Under the pieces are notes generated by a model. The model was not told the origin of the DNA and searched no databases. It saw only the letters and a list, made by a program, of their open reading frames with translations. A DNA stretch of 45,458 nucleotides from Candidatus Berkelbacteria bacterium (GTDB lineage Bacteria > Patescibacteriota > UBA1384 > VFKW01), in assembly GCA_009885355.1 (NCBI GenBank), contig VFKW01000035.1, positions 1-45,458 on the forward strand, written 5' to 3'. A program made the translations under genes and the position numbers. Positions 1,399 through 8,900 of this stretch are shown here, piece by piece (position 1 is the first letter of the stretch; each line of letters opens with the position of its first letter).

Positions 1399-1716
1399 TT
1401 AAAATCCAACCAAGATTGTAACCTTATTTTGGGTAATCTTTGCTACCCCTCCGTCAATATCTATTTCTTTTTGACCTTTTCCATTATCGATAATTAATGT
1501 GCCCTTGTCAAGTTTTGTAAATAGCGGTGTGTGGCCTGGCAAAATAGCCACATTCCCCCCGGGGCTGGTTGCAATGATCGTTTTTGCCTTGCCTTCATAC
1601 ATTACCGAACCAAGATTGACAACCGCCACATCCATCTCGCCGGGGATTTCTGTCGGCAATTGGAATGTGGATAACTCTTCAACTTCATCCTTTTTTACCC
1701 CTTCATCTGCTTCCAT
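1399..1716 (-). CDS. atpC: F-type ATPase epsilon subunit, beta-sandwich domain only
   Basis: 105 aa. [16 protein letters not shown] matches the epsilon ILPGHxPL signature. It is the last gene of the operon and overlaps atpD by 22 nt. The protein ends (..KVTILVGF) where the C-terminal helical hairpin normally begins. Confidence 0.85.
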
Positions 1717-3107
1717 TTTGCCTCCACGGTTTCGATATTTCCGGCCATATAAAACGGCTCGTCTGTATAATCGTCATAATCTCCATTTAGGATCCTTGCT
1801 ACCCCTTCAACTGTCTCTTCAACCGGTACATATTGACCTTTAACATTGGTAAATTTCTCGGCTGTAAAAAAAGGTTGTGAAAAAAACTTTAATAATTTTT
1901 TTGATCTCTGAACCGTTACTTTTTCTCTTTCCGACAATTCATCTTCGCCCAAAATCGCAATAATATTTTGAAGCGATCGATATCTTTCCAATAATTTCAT
2001 CGCATCTTTTTGCGCCTTATGATGTTTTTCCCCCAATACACTGGCATCAACCGTCGAGCTTGATTCAAGGGGATCAACTGCCGGATAGATTTTCTGCTGA
2101 GTGATCTTACGAGAAAGCACTACGATTGAATCAAGGTGCGAAAAGATCGCCTGGATCGCCGGATCGGAAAAGTCATCCGCTGGCACATAAATCGCTTGCA
2201 CTGAAGTAATCGAGCCGGTCGAAGTCGAAACGATCCGCTCCTCCACCTCTCCGATCTCCGAGGCTAGAGTTGACTGGTAGCCGGTTTCCGACGGGATACG
2301 TCCAAGCACGATCGACACTTCCATCCCCGCCTGGATAAACCGAAAAATATTATCGATAAATAACAGAATATCGTTTTTTTTCCAATCCCTCAGATATTCC
2401 GCAATTGTGATTCCTGTCAATGGTGTGCGAAAACGCATTGCCGGCGATTCGTTCATCTGTCCGAGCACAATCGCCACATTTGGCAAAACTCCGGTTTCTT
2501 TTAGTGATAAATACAGCTCGTTACCTTCCCTGGTACGTTCTCCAACTCCGGCAAATACCGAGTTGTTGCCGTGCTTCATCGTCGTGTTGTGGATAATTTC
2601 CGTCACCAGTTGAGTTTTTCCCACACCCGCTCCTCCAAAGAAGCCAATTTTTCCTCCTTTGATAAATGGCGTTAAAAAGTCTAGTGCTTTGATGCCGGTT
2701 TCAATAATTGTGTCCGAGGTGATTACTTCCAAAAAATTTGGACTTGGTCTGTATATCGGGTAGTGTTCTTTTGTCAAAACCGGTCCGCAGTTATCCACAG
2801 GATCGCCAAAAACATTCACGATTCGTCCTAATAGTTCTGGTCCGACCGGCACGTGTAAAACGTCCCCGGTATCTTCTACCTCAATTCCTACTTTTAATCC
2901 GGACGAACTTCCCATCGCCAGACTTCTGACGGTATGGCTTGGTAAATGCTCAAACACTTCCAAAATTAATCGATCTCTAGTTCCCTTGACCAGCATCGCA
3001 TTATGAATATCCGGTAAAATTCCTGGGAAATGCACATCTACCACCGCCCCATGAATACCGACAATCTTGCCAATTTTATTTTTTACGACATTTTCCTTAT
3101 TTACCAT
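1695..3107 (-). CDS. atpD: F-type ATPase beta subunit
   Basis: 470 aa with Walker [20 protein letters not shown] and the DELSE(REK) motif. Confidence 0.97.
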
Positions 3108-3982
3108 AGTGCGCTTCCTCCCAGAACCTCGGAAATCTTTTTATCAATCATTTTTCGGCGCTGTTTATTATATTCGTGGCTCAAATCTGTCAGTAGGATT
3201 TTGGAATTTTCAGAGGCTGTCTGCATTCCGACCATCTGCGCTGAAAACTGCGCCAGACGTGAATCCAATACCTGCTGTTGAAACAGCGCCGCGCGCAATT
3301 TAGCCGATATATCTCGGATCAATTCATCAACCGAAGGTTCAAATATAAATCTTACCTGCTCTTCTTTATGTTCCTCGGCATTGCCTGTCGGCGGTGTTGC
3401 CATCAAAACCTCAACTACATCTCGTTTGATTGTATTTACAAATCGAGAGTAAACCATCAATACTCGGGAATAATATGGGAACATCGTTACCAGCCGTGCT
3501 AGTTCAGTATATGAAAATTCATCCGGTAGAGAATAAGGATAAAATTTGAAATTATACTTTTTATTGGTTAAATAATGTTCTTGCCCCTTTTTTCCGATAA
3601 TAAATATATCCGCTTCAGCATTTTCTCTCAAAATATGAGTTTCCAAGGCTTTAAAAACTTCGGCATTGTATTTCCCGCAAAGTCCTTGGTTGGATGTAAC
3701 CACAATTACCGCCATATTTTTATTTGTGGATAATTGTTTGCCTTTTTCCTTTTTTAGCGCTTTTTTATTGGCTTCTTCATATTCATGTTGATAGGCCAAA
3801 TCTTTATAGAAATTTAATTCCCGAAGCATCTCGGTTGCCTCATCGACAAATCTTTTTGCCGCCATCACTTTGTTACGCAAACTCGTCATTTTCATCGCTG
3901 CGATCTGTTGCAAGGCATTAGCAAAACCGCCGACTGATTTTACCACCGCAATTTTTTCTTTTGTCTCATTTAAAGTGGGCAT
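3101..3982 (-). CDS. atpG: F-type ATPase gamma subunit
   Basis: 293 aa, located between the alpha and beta genes. AAGGAG lies about 8 nt before ATG 3982. N- and C-terminal helices are gamma-like (C-terminus ..[24 protein letters not shown]). Confidence 0.9.
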
Positions 3983-3995
3983 TTAGAGCTTCTCC

Positions 3996-6334: not shown

Positions 6335-6839
6335 CGTTTATCTCGCCTTCAACTTCTAAAAATGCTTTTTCGATCAGTTCTCTGTGGTCTTCATAAGTCA
6401 AACTTTTTGCCAAAACTTTTTTTGCCACTCCCATCACCAAGTCAACCATTTTTGTCTGCACTTCTTTTTTCTGTTCTTCTAGAAAATTATCCGCTTCTTC
6501 TTTTACATCTTCTTCGATTTTCTTCGCTTTTTCTTGTGCTTTTTTAATGATCTCGTCTGCCTGGCTCTTATCAATTATTACTTCTTTTGGTTTATTGAGT
6601 CTTTCCCGCAATATTTGTCGGTGCTTGTCTTCCAAGTCCTGAACAATCGATTTTAATTTTGCAATCTCTTTTTTTTCTCTAGCTTTTCTCTCTGCGATCT
6701 GTTGCAAATACTTTTCTTTTATTTCATGCAATTTCTTTTCGGCGATTTGTTGGATCTTTTTTTCTCGGTAATTAAAATAATAGCCTAAGAGAAATAGACA
6801 AACTCCGGTAATTGCTAAATTGGTAAATAAAACGTTCAT
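6324..6839 (-). CDS. atpF: F-type ATPase b subunit (peripheral stalk)
   Basis: 171 aa with one N-terminal TM helix (NLAITGVCLFLLGYYF) followed by a long K/E-rich helix. GGAGGGG lies between the upstream TAG (6858-6860) and ATG 6839. Confidence 0.85.
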   Translation of the reverse strand: MNVLFTNLAITGVCLFLLGYYFNYREKKIQQIAEKKLHEIKEKYLQQIAERKAREKKEIAKLKSIVQDLEDKHRQILRERLNKPKEVIIDKSQADEIIKKAQEKAKKIEEDVKEEADNFLEEQKKEVQTKMVDLVMGVAKKVLAKSLTYEDHRELIEKAFLEVEGEINDDK

Positions 6840-6857
6840 CTTTCCCCTCCAAATTTT

Positions 6858-7124
6858 CTATCGTGGCTTTGTGATTAAAAACGCCGCCACCACCGAAAGC
6901 ACCGCGGCTATCAATCCTAAAAACATTGCAATATACATATTTGTTTGGATTTTGCTTTTAGCCAGTGGATTTCGTCCGATTGCTTCCAATCCTCGTCCGG
7001 CCATCCAGGCCATCCCAAGAGCTGAGCCCAAAATTCCCAATCCCGAAGCGATGCCGGCTGAAATATATTTCACAGATCCATATGTACTACTGCCTGAAAA
7101 TGTCGCCGCTCCGGCCAGCCGCAT
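6858..7124 (-). other. Subunit-c-like hairpin segment of the 680-aa ORF (possible internally initiated 88-aa product)
   Basis: ..[68 protein letters not shown] shows a Gly-rich helix 1, an R-N-P loop (canonical RQP) and a hydrophobic helix 2. I hand-translated 6858-6989 to confirm. ATG 7124 is the only in-frame ATG upstream of helix 1. It has only a weak AGGA 6 nt upstream, whereas neighbouring genes have GGAGG-type sites. Confidence 0.75.
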
Positions 7125-8900
7125 CGGCTGTCCTGTCACTTCAAATGTATTACTCACTCCATTCATCCCTGGCGAAATCGCGTCGATTACCACATTTTTC
7201 TTCCCAACTGCAATTGTCACTTTTCCAGTCCAAACCCCTTCTTTAAAATCATTGATCGCCGTTGGCACCATCGTGTTTGTCGAATCTCGTAGAGCGACTT
7301 GATCTTTAAAGTCGATAACGATATTCCCGGATACGTCTTTGGCAGTGACTTTTACGTCAAAGGCCGTGCCTGCTTTTTTTGGTCCTTTTATTTCCTCAAA
7401 AATGAAATACCCTGCGCTCGATGGTTTTGATGAAATAGTTACTTCAACAGCTTTTTTAACTGCCGCCTGGGTCGCCTCGATACTCAGTTTGCCATTTCCT
7501 GGAGTATCCTTCAAAACCAATTCGTTATTATTGCCGCTATCTGTCATCAATTCGCCAATAGCACTATTATCAATCGTCCATTTAAAATTCACTTCAGTAA
7601 TGGCAAAGTTATATTTATCATAAGCTGTGGCTGTTAAAAAATGTCTCGAATTCACATTTCCCTGAATCACGTAAGGTGTCACAATTACATGATCCAAAAC
7701 ACCTTGTCCGACCAATTTTTTCGGGTACTGTTTGACAAAGTCTTTCAAATCAGTCAAATCCCAGTTTTTCGCATCCGTTCCACCCCCGGCGCCATCGCCT
7801 AAGCCGCCCCCTGTGCCTGCGCCAGTCCCGTTGGCTCCGCCGCTTCCGGTGCCGGTCCCGCTTCCATTTCCGCTGCCGCCGCCGCCAACTAGGTCGGCGT
7901 CTATCTCTTCGTCGCTCATCACTGAAACTGACGCCATTGCTCCGATTGAGCCGGATTGCGCTTTTATTGTATTTGTAAAACTTGCTACTACTGTTCCAGC
8001 CGTGAAGATGCCATTTGAATCAATCGTCCCGCCTCCGTTTAATACGGACCAAGTAACCAATCCCATTGGCGCCGGATTGTTATATATGTCATATCCGGCT
8101 GCTTGGAATACCTGCTGGGCTCCTTTTGGAATTACAGACAAAATCGGATTGATTTGGATATGGTGCAGTGAGCCGCTAAAGGCATTTCCATAATAATTAA
8201 TCGGCGGTGCCAAGCCTTCAGTCAAAGATGCCGTCACCGTATAAGTACCGATCTTCGTGCCTAATTTTAAATTAGTCGATTTCATCCCATTAACATCTGT
8301 CATTCCGCCATTTGAGGATAATTGATAACCAGTCGCTCCTGGTGGGAAAGAAGTTACTTGAAAAATTACTCCCAGATTTTGAATTGGGTTTGAATACCTA
8401 TCTACCGCTTTTATTACAAAACTACTTCCAAGTGTGTTATTAACAATATTTGAATCAGCTCCAGCTCCGATCGAGCGCATATAAATCTGGCTTGAATCCG
8501 GTAATACCATAAATGCCATACTGGTTCCAGGCATGATAATAGGTGCGTTGGCATTAACGGCAGTTGCTGTAATCGTTACTGAATTGGATGCTTTCGTGAT
8601 TCTGACATTGCCTGAGTATGATCCGTTTTCCATCCATACTCTATTTGGACTTATTGTGCTCGGCGAATTTGAATCACTCAGATAAACCCAATTTGTAAAA
8701 CCTGGCTCAGCTGGATTTACAGTTTCGATGTCAATTGTAAAATAAGTTCCGGCTATCTTAGGCTCTGCTGCCAGATTTGTTACAAAGCTAAAATTACTGC
8801 CTGCTGCTACTGCCGTTTTAAAAAGCAGTAAATTAGACAGCAAAACAGTTAAACAGAAGATAGTGCACACAAACTTATATGCAAATCTTTGGGTTAGCAC
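6858..8900 (-). CDS. Secreted Ig-like-repeat protein ending in an F-type subunit-c-like hairpin (in-frame fusion)
   Basis: An uninterrupted 680-codon frame starting at GTG 8900, preceded by AAGAGGGG. It has an N-terminal signal peptide (..[11 protein letters not shown]). Several modules resemble Big_1/Big_2 Ig-like domains (..[30 protein letters not shown]; ..[21 protein letters not shown]..). A G/S/T/N linker spans about 7776-7888, and the last ~70 aa form a subunit-c hairpin. Confidence 0.8.

What the first reader, a model, noticed from the sequence alone, without database searches (positions are those of the whole stretch)
1399..8900. F-type ATPase operon with complete F1 and stalks but no a subunit at the canonical position
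Gene order on the minus strand is [Ig-like/c fusion]-b-delta-alpha-gamma-beta-epsilon, tightly packed with overlaps or gaps of 18 nt or less. Canonical operons have atpB (subunit a) directly before atpE. Here that slot holds the extracellular part of the 680-aa ORF, and no a-like multi-TM protein occurs anywhere in the window. The alpha and beta catalytic motifs are intact ([21 protein letters not shown]).

Three other observations point the same way: the carboxylate-less c hairpin, the truncated epsilon and the extended alpha. Together they suggest an ATP-hydrolysing rotary or F1-like machine uncoupled from ion translocation. This would be conceptually similar to the accessory F1-like ATPase clusters of mycoplasmas, one of which drives gliding. 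The function is inference.
Basis: partly seen in the sequence, partly recalled or inferred. Interest (0 to 1): 0.75.

Follow-up and report, generated by a model that had tools for sequence, protein, structure and literature searches.

The report
Ion-blind F-type ATPase with surface-exposed rotor
A candidate-phyla-radiation bacterium carries a conserved second kind of F-type ATPase that has no proton channel, and whose membrane-ring subunit has lost its ion-binding residue and gained a large cell-surface domain, so it probably burns ATP to do mechanical work at the cell surface rather than make ATP.

Summary
Window 1399-8900 (minus strand) encodes seven tightly packed genes:
- a 680-aa protein made of a signal peptide, five Ig-like domains and a c-subunit hairpin
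- b, delta, alpha (608 aa), gamma, beta
- an epsilon that has only its N-terminal domain

No subunit a is present in the window.

The fusion is real. About 27 homologues (31-68% identity) share the architecture, and none has an acidic residue in the second c helix. The same seven-gene operon without atpB recurs in about 20 loci from several Patescibacteria lineages.

Two relatives (L017, L018) carry this operon and, on the same contig, a complete canonical atpB-E-F-H-A-G-D-C operon. That operon has a Glu-bearing c and a full-length epsilon. The fusion-type operon is therefore an old, distinct paralogue and not a split ATP synthase.

The operon stays linked, through rearrangements, to genes for membrane-anchored and secreted surface proteins. 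These are cohesin-like, dockerin-like and WxLIP-like proteins plus a ~390-aa family.

The best reading is an ATP-hydrolysing F-type machine that moves no ions and acts on the cell surface. It is analogous to the mycoplasma F1-like ATPases but is not a member of that family. The function is inferred. Whether the window's own genome also has a canonical operon could not be tested.

The parts
6858..8900 (-). 680-aa fusion protein. It has a Sec-type signal peptide (about residues 1-33), three Ig-like domains (35-328), a disordered Gly-rich linker (332-380), two more Ig-like domains (402-589) and a short linker. It ends in an F-type c-subunit helical hairpin (residues 608-677, nt 6870-7079) that lacks the ion-binding carboxylate.
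   Evidence: Pfam Big_1 and ATP-synt_C. NCBIfam subunit C models. AlphaFold2 model with mean pLDDT 80. Alignment to solved c subunits. 27 homologues share the architecture.
6324..6839 (-). b-like peripheral-stalk subunit, 171 aa, with one N-terminal TM helix and a long coiled coil.
   Evidence: Weak NCBIfam hits to subunit B models (E 6e-10, below the cut-offs). Position and architecture are conserved in all loci.
5792..6334 (-). delta (OSCP) subunit, 180 aa.
   Evidence: Pfam OSCP, E 1.6e-17.
3996..5822 (-). alpha subunit, 608 aa, with an N-terminal extension of about 40-50 aa and a low-complexity K/E/P-rich C-terminal tail of about 70 aa. The true start may be at 5786.
   Evidence: Pfam. NCBIfam atpA 519 bits against a cut-off of 484. 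Comparison of extensions across loci.
3101..3982 (-). gamma subunit, 293 aa.
   Evidence: Pfam ATP-synt, E 2e-45.
1695..3107 (-). beta (catalytic) subunit, 470 aa, with intact Walker A, catalytic GERTREG and DELSE motifs.
   Evidence: NCBIfam atpD 608 bits against a cut-off of 463. 500-536 bits to solved F1 betas.
1399..1716 (-). epsilon subunit, 105 aa. It has the N-terminal beta-sandwich only, with no C-terminal inhibitory helices.
   Evidence: Pfam ATP-synt_DE_N covers residues 28-103. All family members are 83-129 aa, against 145 aa for the canonical epsilon in L017.
1..1151 (-). 5' part (383 codons, cut by the contig end) of a secreted protein of about 390 aa with no family assignment. 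It lies directly downstream of epsilon in most loci.
   Evidence: Translation. Homologues lie next to the operon in 14 loci. No Pfam hit. The AlphaFold2 model has a confident N-terminal beta-sandwich and a poorly predicted C-terminal half.
9104..10342 (-). Secreted 412-aa protein with Ig-like domains and a C-terminal dockerin-like module.
   Evidence: Pfam Dockerin_1: weak in the window and E 2e-7 in the L008 orthologue. Linkage to the operon is conserved.
10491..11471 (-). WxLIP-like surface protein. It has a signal peptide, a DUF916/WxLIP_PGBD domain, a C-terminal TM helix and a short conserved cytoplasmic tail.
   Evidence: Pfam WxLIP_PGBD 31.1 bits against a cut-off of 27.3. The architecture matches that in PMC10599100. 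Linkage is conserved.
11638..12666 (-). Cohesin-like surface protein, 342 aa, with a TM helix (about residues 253-280) and a conserved cytoplasmic coiled-coil tail of about 60 aa.
   Evidence: Pfam Cohesin 24.5 bits against a cut-off of 24.1. TM prediction. The tail is conserved even in distant L016.
12663..13223 (-). N-terminally anchored cohesin-like protein, 186 aa.
   Evidence: Pfam Cohesin, weak. Linkage is conserved.

Best explanation
This is a paralogous F-type ATPase that does not translocate ions.

**Composition.** It keeps a complete F1 head (alpha3-beta3-gamma-epsilon) and a peripheral stalk (b, delta). It has no subunit a. Its c subunit has lost the membrane carboxylate. Each c subunit carries, on its outward-facing N-terminus, a secreted chain of Ig-like domains.

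**Proposed mechanism (inferred).** The c hairpins still form a ring that docks to gamma and epsilon. ATP hydrolysis in F1 is not restrained by an epsilon C-terminal domain. It turns, or at least strains, the gamma-epsilon-c-ring, and with it the ectodomains, against the stator. The output is mechanical work at the cell surface. That work is probably exerted on or through the co-encoded membrane-anchored cohesin-like and WxLIP-like proteins and the secreted dockerin-like and ~390-aa proteins. It could serve attachment, surface movement or surface remodelling in an episymbiotic bacterium.

**Shown:** the gene content, the fusion, the loss of the carboxylate, the lack of an adjacent atpB, the coexistence with a canonical operon in two relatives, and the conserved linkage to surface-protein genes.

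**Inferred:** ring formation, hydrolysis-only operation, rotation, and the surface target.
For: - **The fusion is conserved.** 27 proteins at 31-68% identity share it. The hairpin loop R-N-P is invariant, as are the small-residue packing positions A615, A618, G620, G622 and G625. This argues that the ring and the gamma/epsilon contact are kept.
- **No ion site.** No D or E occurs in helix 2 in any member, and Leu sits at the Glu position of solved c subunits.
- **No subunit a.** The same operon lacks atpB in about 20 loci.
- **A canonical operon coexists.** L017 and L018 have a full canonical operon 3-4.5 kb downstream. Its atpB has PF00119 and FRLFGN, its c has Glu, and its epsilon is 145 aa.
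- **A distinct clade.** Fusion-type subunits are close to each other (beta 67-90%, alpha 49-75%, gamma 45-77% identity). They are far from the canonical copy in L017 (about 50%, 39% and 21%).
- **Catalytic machinery is intact.** Alpha and beta pass NCBIfam's atpA and atpD cut-offs.
- **Epsilon is truncated.** Every member lacks the C-terminal helices.
- **The topology fits.** A signal peptide followed by an ectodomain places the c N-terminus outside, as in ordinary c subunits (the c-subunit topology is established knowledge).
- **Surface-protein genes stay linked through rearrangement.** They lie upstream in the window, L003, L008, L010 and L014, and all downstream in L001 and L016.
- **Ectodomains are modular.** P0197 has 2653 aa of NHL-like repeats and Ig-like domains on the same hairpin.
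Against: - No biochemical or structural data exist. Ring formation and rotation are not shown.
- Without subunit a it is unclear what holds the b stalk against the ring, so torque transmission is conjecture.
- The window's own genome could not be searched, so a canonical atpB and atpE elsewhere, or a mixed ring, cannot be excluded for this organism.
- In L023 the operon sits directly after a cytochrome-oxidase operon. That is the kind of neighbour expected for an ordinary bioenergetic ATPase.
- L006, L017 and L018 lack the surface-protein neighbours within the stretch seen.
- L019 has alpha-gamma-beta-epsilon without c, b or delta at that place.
Confidence: 0.6

Rival explanations
1. Hybrid rotor. 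The Ig-c protein is a minor, carboxylate-free component of a mixed c-ring that also contains ordinary c subunits and works with a subunit a encoded elsewhere. The complex would still be ion-coupled. The known precedent is the Acetobacterium woodii ring, which mixes c subunits with different carboxylate content.
For: The hairpin is clearly homologous to the canonical CPR c and shares the loop GLEAIGRNP. Canonical atpB and atpE do exist in L017 and L018. The A. woodii c1 chain appears among the weak PDB matches (4bem_J). L023 lies next to a quinol-oxidase operon.
Against: In L017 and L018 the canonical operon has its own complete set of subunits alpha to epsilon, and the fusion-type operon has its own b, delta, alpha, gamma, beta and epsilon. 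Two separate machines are therefore encoded. The two subunit sets are strongly diverged, with gamma at about 21% identity, which argues against interchangeable parts. No ordinary c or a lies near any of about 20 fusion-type operons.
Confidence: 0.1
2. Ordinary but split F1Fo ATP synthase. atpB (and perhaps atpE) have simply moved elsewhere in the genome, and the 680-aa ORF is an annotation or assembly artefact that joins a surface-protein gene to atpE.
For: An in-frame Met lies about 88 codons before the stop, so a short c could in principle be translated on its own. MAG assemblies do contain frameshifts (L010, L020).
Against: The in-frame fusion is conserved in 27 proteins down to 31% identity and in independent assemblies. 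The carboxylate is missing in all of them. Where atpB is seen, it comes with a complete second operon.
Confidence: 0.04
3. Protein-handling ATPase. The F1-like head, as in the related flagellar and type III export ATPases, energises export, assembly or turnover of the neighbouring surface proteins. It would not deliver torque to a rotating ectodomain ring.
For: Linkage to secreted and anchored surface proteins is conserved. F1 alpha and beta are homologous to FliI/SctN (hits). The b-like protein gives faint FliH and SctL-like matches.
Against: All neighbouring surface proteins have ordinary N-terminal signal peptides or anchors, so Sec export suffices. Alpha and beta score far higher against atpA and atpD than against FliI/SctN. 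Gamma, delta, epsilon and a c hairpin are all retained, which fits a rotary assembly and not an export gate.
Confidence: 0.1
4. Decaying relic. A duplicated atp operon is losing function, with a and the carboxylate already gone, and has no present role.
For: In a cultivated Saccharibacterium all predicted ATP synthase genes are dispensable (PMC10633639). Whether that enzyme is of this type is unknown. Some loci show broken genes (L010, L020).
Against: Beta is 67-90% identical across classes with intact catalytic motifs. The hairpin has invariant positions. The seven-gene order is kept in about 20 loci. This is strong purifying selection.
Confidence: 0.03

Closest known systems
Canonical bacterial F1Fo ATP synthase (atpBEFHAGDC)
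   Same: Homologous alpha, beta, gamma, delta, epsilon (N-domain), b and c hairpin in the same order from c to epsilon. Alpha and beta pass the NCBIfam equivalog cut-offs. The c loop R-N/Q-P is kept.
   Different: There is no subunit a and no ion-binding carboxylate. The c subunit carries a signal peptide and 560 to more than 2500 aa of ectodomain. Epsilon lacks its C-terminal domain. The operon coexists with a true canonical operon in L017 and L018.
Mycoplasma Type 3 'F1-like X0' ATPase (works with MIB-MIP) and Type 2 G1-ATPase (M. mobile gliding), per PMC3369863, PMC12994834 and PMC11864180
   Same: It is an accessory F1-type ATPase encoded beside the genuine F1Fo in a reduced, host-dependent bacterium. 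It is a seven-gene cluster. [quoted passage not shown] It is genetically linked to cell-surface proteins. The proposed role is transmitting ATP-derived force across the membrane.
   Different: Here b and delta are present and there is no 12-TM protein or small cytoplasmic subunit. The two-TM hairpin is recognisably a c subunit. Alpha and beta score well below the cut-offs of the MSC_0618/0619 and MMOB1660/1670 models (434 vs 570, 257 vs 520, 353 vs 600, 432 vs 850). Beta matches the solved G1-ATPase beta much less well than it matches F1 betas (350 vs about 500-536 bits). The origin is probably independent.
'Non-respiratory' F-type ATPase homologues next to type IVa pilus genes in Omnitrophota (Seymour et al. 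2023, PMC10066038)
   Same: A second F-type ATPase in ultrasmall, host-associated bacteria, proposed to act in attachment or motility. That paper notes beta sequences clustering with some Saccharimonadia.
   Different: Those alpha subunits are reported to cluster with mycoplasma types 2 and 3, and their neighbours are pilus genes. Here alpha is canonical-type and the neighbours are cohesin-like, dockerin-like and WxLIP-like genes. The main-text passages I read describe no c-ectodomain fusion, loss of carboxylate or lack of subunit a. Whether the two belong to one clade was not tested.
N-ATPase (alternate F1Fo)
   Same: A second F-type operon in genomes that already have one.
   Different: N-ATPases keep subunit a and an ion-binding c, and have the order beta-epsilon-X-X-a-c-b-alpha-gamma. 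The window's subunits fall far below the alt_F1F0 cut-offs (524 vs 752, 460 vs 750).
WxL / Csc cell-surface protein clusters of Firmicutes (PMC10599100, PMC1534035)
   Same: The neighbouring 326-aa protein has the WxLIP_PGBD domain followed by a C-terminal TM helix. It is clustered with small and large secreted proteins that share a C-terminal domain.
   Different: No WxL domain is detectable in the ~390-aa family, and its C-terminal half is poorly modelled. I know of no WxL cluster linked to an ATPase.

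Membership tests
Canonical F1Fo ATP synthase | [quoted passage not shown] | tested here: met
   NCBIfam: atpD 608 bits (cut-off 463) and atpA 519 bits (cut-off 484). 500-536 bits to solved F1 betas.
Canonical F1Fo ATP synthase | Subunit a (PF00119) that provides the ion half-channels, normally encoded just before c | tested here: not met
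   No PF00119 in the window. tblastn with a relative's atpB gives nothing. It is absent next to about 20 orthologous operons. The rest of the window's genome could not be searched.
Canonical F1Fo ATP synthase | c subunit with a membrane-embedded Glu or Asp that binds the coupling ion | tested here: not met
   Leu sits at the aligned Glu position, and helix 2 has no acidic residue. The same holds in all 27 homologues and all loci.
Canonical F1Fo ATP synthase | Central stalk (gamma, epsilon) and peripheral stalk (b, delta) | tested here: met
   Pfam hits above the gathering scores for gamma, delta and the epsilon N-domain. The b subunit is supported only by weak NCBIfam hits and by its architecture. 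Epsilon lacks its C-terminal domain.
Mycoplasma F1-like ATPases (Type 2 / Type 3) | [quoted passage not shown] | tested here: not met
   All four NCBIfam models score below their cut-offs (434/570, 257/520, 353/600, 432/850), while atpA and atpD pass.
Mycoplasma F1-like ATPases (Type 2 / Type 3) | Cluster contains a 12-TM protein and a small cytoplasmic protein, with no b or delta | tested here: not met
   No such ORFs are in the operon, and b and delta are present. The cluster composition is taken from PMC12994834.
Mycoplasma F1-like ATPases (Type 2 / Type 3) | [quoted passage not shown] | tested here: met
   The 680-aa protein has exactly this layout. Sequence homology to MMCAP2_0577 or MMOB1650 could not be tested because no sequences were at hand.
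Mycoplasma F1-like ATPases (Type 2 / Type 3) | Coexists with a genuine F1Fo operon in the same genome | tested here: inconclusive
   Shown for the relatives L017 and L018. Not testable for the window's own genome.
N-ATPase | alt_F1F0 subunit families and the gene order beta-epsilon-X-X-a-c-b-alpha-gamma | tested here: not met
   Scores are far below the cut-offs, and the gene order is different.
WxL-type surface cluster (the neighbours only) | WxLIP (DUF916 + DUF3324 + TM helix) together with WxL-domain proteins | tested here: inconclusive
   WxLIP_PGBD is above the gathering score and a C-terminal TM helix is present. No WxL domain was found in the ~390-aa family, and the structure model is too weak to decide.

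The most novel reading that the evidence does not exclude
An ATP-driven rotary motor whose rotor reaches outside the cell.

- A ring of carboxylate-free c hairpins, each carrying a chain of Ig-like domains, is spun by F1.
- It spins against a stator tied to the cell wall through the co-encoded proteins: the cohesin-like protein with a conserved cytoplasmic tail, WxLIP, and the dockerin-like partner.
- This would give episymbiotic CPR bacteria a new kind of surface motor for attachment, gliding or working on the host envelope.
- It would also imply that the enigmatic 'signal peptide + two TM' subunit of the mycoplasma X0 sector is a degenerate c subunit.
Probability: 0.25. Interest if true: 0.92.

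Novelty: new variant of a known kind. Interest (0 to 1): 0.8.

Why it matters
[quoted passage not shown] In one cultivated member the whole enzyme is dispensable (PMC10633639). This finding shows that at least one widespread set of those genes cannot be an ion-coupled synthase.

- **Metabolic reconstruction.** Reconstructions that score 'F-type ATPase completeness' may therefore be misreading these operons.
- **Mechanism.** The complex keeps every F1 and stalk part but has replaced the ion-conducting half of Fo with an extracellular domain. That makes it a natural experiment on what a rotary ATPase can be used for.
- **Mycoplasma systems.** It is a sequence-recognisable counterpart of the mycoplasma F1-like ATPases, whose membrane sector is still not understood.
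- **Testability.** It gives a concrete 12-gene candidate system for the surface biology of episymbiotic bacteria.

Tried and rejected
- **Exact look-up of window proteins.** The 680-aa and beta proteins were reported as not on record, although P0001 shows that the contig is in the collection.
- **Finding a canonical atpB in the fusion-bearing genomes.** I searched 5.8 billion proteins with the L017 atpB and compared the 'longest contig' lengths with those of the fusion contigs. Only L017 itself matched. The question stays open.
- **Representative-protein search with the full fusion profile.** It was swamped by giant Ig-repeat proteins. Only a handful of full-length family members could be picked out, so the family size was not measured.
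- **Foldseek on the fusion model.** It gave only generic multi-Ig matches such as titin, contactin, complement MG domains and S-layer proteins.
- **The ~390-aa family.** It has no Pfam hit. Its model has a mean pLDDT of 61, and the fold matches are non-specific. The idea that it is a WxL-like protein is unproven.
- **Literature searches.** Searches for Howlettbacteria, CPR2 plus ATP synthase, Patescibacteria plus c-ring, and F1-like ATPase plus CPR found no description of this architecture.
- **Artefactual fusion.** Considered and rejected because of the conservation.
- **N-ATPase.** Considered and rejected.

Full report
**Observation**

The minus strand of window 1399-8900 holds seven ORFs, packed with gaps of at most 18 nt or short overlaps. 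Pfam assigns them as follows:
- a 680-aa protein with a bacterial Ig-like domain (Big_1) and, at residues 613-676, ATP-synt_C
- delta (OSCP)
- alpha
- gamma
- beta
- an epsilon of 105 aa in which only the N-terminal beta-sandwich is present

The remaining 171-aa protein has no Pfam hit. It has one N-terminal TM helix and a long coiled coil, and it gives weak matches to NCBIfam subunit-B models.

None of the ORFs of at least 100 aa in the 45-kb window has PF00119. A tblastn with a relative's subunit a finds nothing in the window. When the c hairpin is aligned to solved c subunits, a Leu stands where the ion-binding Glu should be, and the second helix has no acidic residue. The description is correct in every checked detail.

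**The fusion is real and defines a family**

A search of 5.8 billion proteins returned the window's own protein (P0001, from a 45,458-bp NCBI contig). It also returned 26 relatives of 655-818 aa, with alignment identities of 34-68%. Nearly all have the Ig-like and c-subunit Pfam domains together. One of them is named Candidatus Howlettbacteria.

All of them end in the same hairpin, '...[11 protein letters not shown][LMF]A...', and none has a D or E in helix 2. The invariant columns include the loop R643-N644-P645 and the small residues A615, A618, G620, G622 and G625 of helix 1. In ordinary c subunits these positions contact gamma/epsilon and pack the ring (established knowledge).

The AlphaFold2 model (mean pLDDT 80) shows these parts in order:
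- an N-terminal signal-type helix
- three beta-sandwich domains
- a disordered Gly-rich linker of about 50 residues
- two more beta-sandwich domains
- a short linker
- a helical hairpin

Fold matches are generic multi-Ig proteins. A signal peptide followed by an ectodomain puts the N-terminus of the hairpin outside the cell, which is the normal orientation of subunit c. A 2653-aa relative carries NHL-like repeats and many Ig-like domains on the same carboxylate-free hairpin. The ectodomain is therefore modular.

**The operon recurs, always without subunit a**

Contexts came from the protein look-ups and from a scan of GTDB species genomes with the beta subunit. Together they gave about 20 distinct loci. 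They come from MAGs labelled CPR2, Howlettbacteria, Berkelbacteria and Beckwithbacteria, and from mislabelled MAGs.

Wherever the contig extends far enough, the order is [signal peptide-Ig-c]-b-delta-alpha-gamma-beta-short epsilon. tblastn with a genuine CPR atpB hits none of the loci held at that point except L017 and L018. The gene tables of the three loci fetched later, L021 to L023, list no PF00119.

**Decisive comparison**

L017 and L018 come from two independent MAGs. On one contig each carries the fusion-type operon and, 3-4.5 kb downstream of its epsilon, a complete canonical operon:
- atpB (304 aa, PF00119, with the FRLFGNIFAGE arginine motif)
- atpE (76 aa, with Glu in AFAEAIAIY)
- atpF, atpH, atpA, atpG and atpD
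- a 145-aa atpC with its C-terminal helices

The fusion-type operon is therefore not a split ATP synthase. It is a second machine.

Its subunits are conserved among themselves (beta 67-90%, alpha 49-75%, gamma 45-77% identity). They are far from the canonical copy in L017 (about 50%, 39% and 21%). All fusion-type epsilons are 83-129 aa and lack the C-terminal domain.

The alpha and beta are nevertheless of the canonical type. They pass NCBIfam's atpA and atpD cut-offs and fall well below those of the N-ATPase and mycoplasma F1-like models. Beta matches solved F1 betas at 500-536 bits, against 350 bits for the M. mobile G1-ATPase beta.

**Surroundings**

Upstream of the fusion gene the window encodes four surface proteins:
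- a dockerin-like secreted protein (9104-10342)
- a WxLIP_PGBD protein with a C-terminal TM helix (10491-11471)
- a cohesin-like protein with a TM helix and a cytoplasmic tail (11638-12666)
- an N-anchored cohesin-like protein (12663-13223)

Downstream of epsilon lies the start of a secreted protein of about 390 aa, cut by the contig end (1-1151).

The same genes flank the operon in most loci. The order differs. They lie upstream in the window, L003, L008, L010 and L014. They all lie downstream in L001 and L016. Linkage that survives rearrangement argues for a shared function.

The cytoplasmic tail of the cohesin-like protein is conserved even in the distant L016. That fits a contact with something inside the cell.

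The ~390-aa family has no Pfam match, and its model is confident only in the N-terminal half. It resembles the small and large WxL proteins of Firmicute clusters (PMC10599100) in cluster organisation only.

**How it most likely works**

Shown:
- There is no subunit a at the locus and no ion-binding site.
- F1 and both stalks are complete.
- The c loop and packing motif are conserved.
- Epsilon has no inhibitory domain.
- The ectodomain is on the outer face.
- A canonical enzyme coexists in two relatives.
- The operon is linked to surface-protein genes.

Inferred: the hairpins form a ring bound to gamma and epsilon. F1 hydrolyses ATP and turns or strains this ring against the b-delta stator. 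The motion is delivered to the cell surface through the Ig-like chains, probably acting with the neighbouring anchored and docked proteins.

The weak point is the stator. Without subunit a, nothing known fixes b next to the ring. The membrane-anchored neighbours are candidates only.

Rivals are a mixed ring with ordinary c and a, a protein-handling ATPase, a decaying duplicate, and an artefactual fusion. They are listed with their evidence under rival explanations. None fits the data as well.

**Comparison with what is known**

The nearest analogues are the mycoplasma Type 2 and Type 3 F1-like ATPases. These are accessory seven-gene clusters beside the true F1Fo. They are tied to surface systems (gliding legs, MIB-MIP). 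[quoted passage not shown]

The system here differs in three ways. It keeps b and delta. It lacks the 12-TM protein. Its alpha and beta are of the canonical type. So it works like them but is not a member of their family.

Seymour et al. 2023 reported 'non-respiratory' F-type ATPase homologues next to pilus genes in Omnitrophota. They noted related beta sequences in Saccharimonadia. The passages I read do not mention a c-ectodomain fusion, loss of the carboxylate or absence of subunit a.

ProAD records 20 F/N-type enzymes with carboxylate-free c subunits, but only among clusters that have all core subunits including a. My nine literature searches found no description of the present architecture. 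The library covers open-access papers only.

**Limits**

The rest of the window's genome was out of reach, so I cannot say whether this organism also has a canonical operon.

In L023 the operon follows a cytochrome-oxidase operon. L019 has alpha-gamma-beta-epsilon with a 794-aa multi-TM protein and no c, b or delta at that place. Both show that the family is not uniform.

**Verdict**

The feature is a conserved, previously undescribed (as far as I could find) variant of the accessory F1-type ATPases. Its mechanism is inferred, not shown.

Noticed in passing
window 21569-29519: A large serine recombinase (21569-22927, minus strand) is followed by a type I restriction-modification system: hsdM, an AAA_15/AbiEii-like ATPase, hsdS and hsdR. 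GC falls to about 0.34 in this stretch. It is probably a mobile defence island.
   Followed up: no
window 8948-9106: The intergenic region between the dockerin-like gene and the Ig-c gene holds an imperfect inverted repeat. It has 34-nt arms that are 74% complementary and 75 nt apart, built from TAGTAG-like units. It could be a terminator or a regulatory hairpin in front of the ATPase operon.
   Followed up: partly
window 5786-5822: The alpha ORF's first ATG gives a 31-nt overlap with delta. The closest orthologue (L008) starts at the equivalent of Met13 ('MIGSIEDF'), which would give a 5-nt gap. The annotated alpha start is therefore uncertain.
   Followed up: partly
L017 10251-16552 and L018 9369-14575: A complete canonical atpBEFHAGDC operon lies 3-4.5 kb downstream of the fusion-type operon on the same contig, in two independent MAGs that are mislabelled 'Pseudomonadales'.
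   Followed up: yes
L019 7170-14073: A variant in a Beckwithbacteria-labelled MAG. The order is alpha-gamma-beta, then a 794-aa multi-TM (glycosyltransferase-C-like) protein, then epsilon (87 aa). No Ig-c, b or delta is found at that place. Two genes of the ~390-aa family are divergently transcribed upstream. L005 also has a 723-aa TMEM260_N-type multi-TM protein beside the operon.
   Followed up: partly
L023 4943-9649: In a MAG labelled Verrucomicrobiae, the fusion-type operon follows directly after a quinol-oxidase operon (COX_ARM, COX1, COX3, COX4_pro, heme O synthase). That is an odd neighbour for an ATPase that cannot use an ion gradient.
   Followed up: partly
P0197 (protein, 2653 aa): A giant protein with NHL-like repeats and many Ig-like domains ends in the same carboxylate-free c hairpin. 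The ectodomain of this family can therefore be several times larger than in the window.
   Followed up: partly
L010 6476-8716 and L020 4297-11367: Delta and alpha are split in L010, where a run of X is also present. The Ig-c gene (three pieces) and beta (two pieces) are split in L020, from CPR2 GW2011_GWC2_39_10. These are assembly or sequencing errors, or local decay.
   Followed up: no
window 15050-15535: A 161-aa ORF with four predicted TM helices and no family match sits next to a Big_7 surface protein. The pair is conserved in L008. It is too small and too far away to be a subunit a.
   Followed up: partly
window 11638-12666 (and orthologues): The cohesin-like membrane protein has a strongly conserved cytoplasmic tail of about 60 aa ('EKKRHLELVHLFDSHLGTLSSLESKLDLVDQK...'). 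The tail is also conserved in the distant L016 orthologue. This suggests an intracellular partner.
   Followed up: partly
window 34087-35319: An ORF with an HTH_28 domain and a weak rve integrase-core match, probably a transposase.
   Followed up: no
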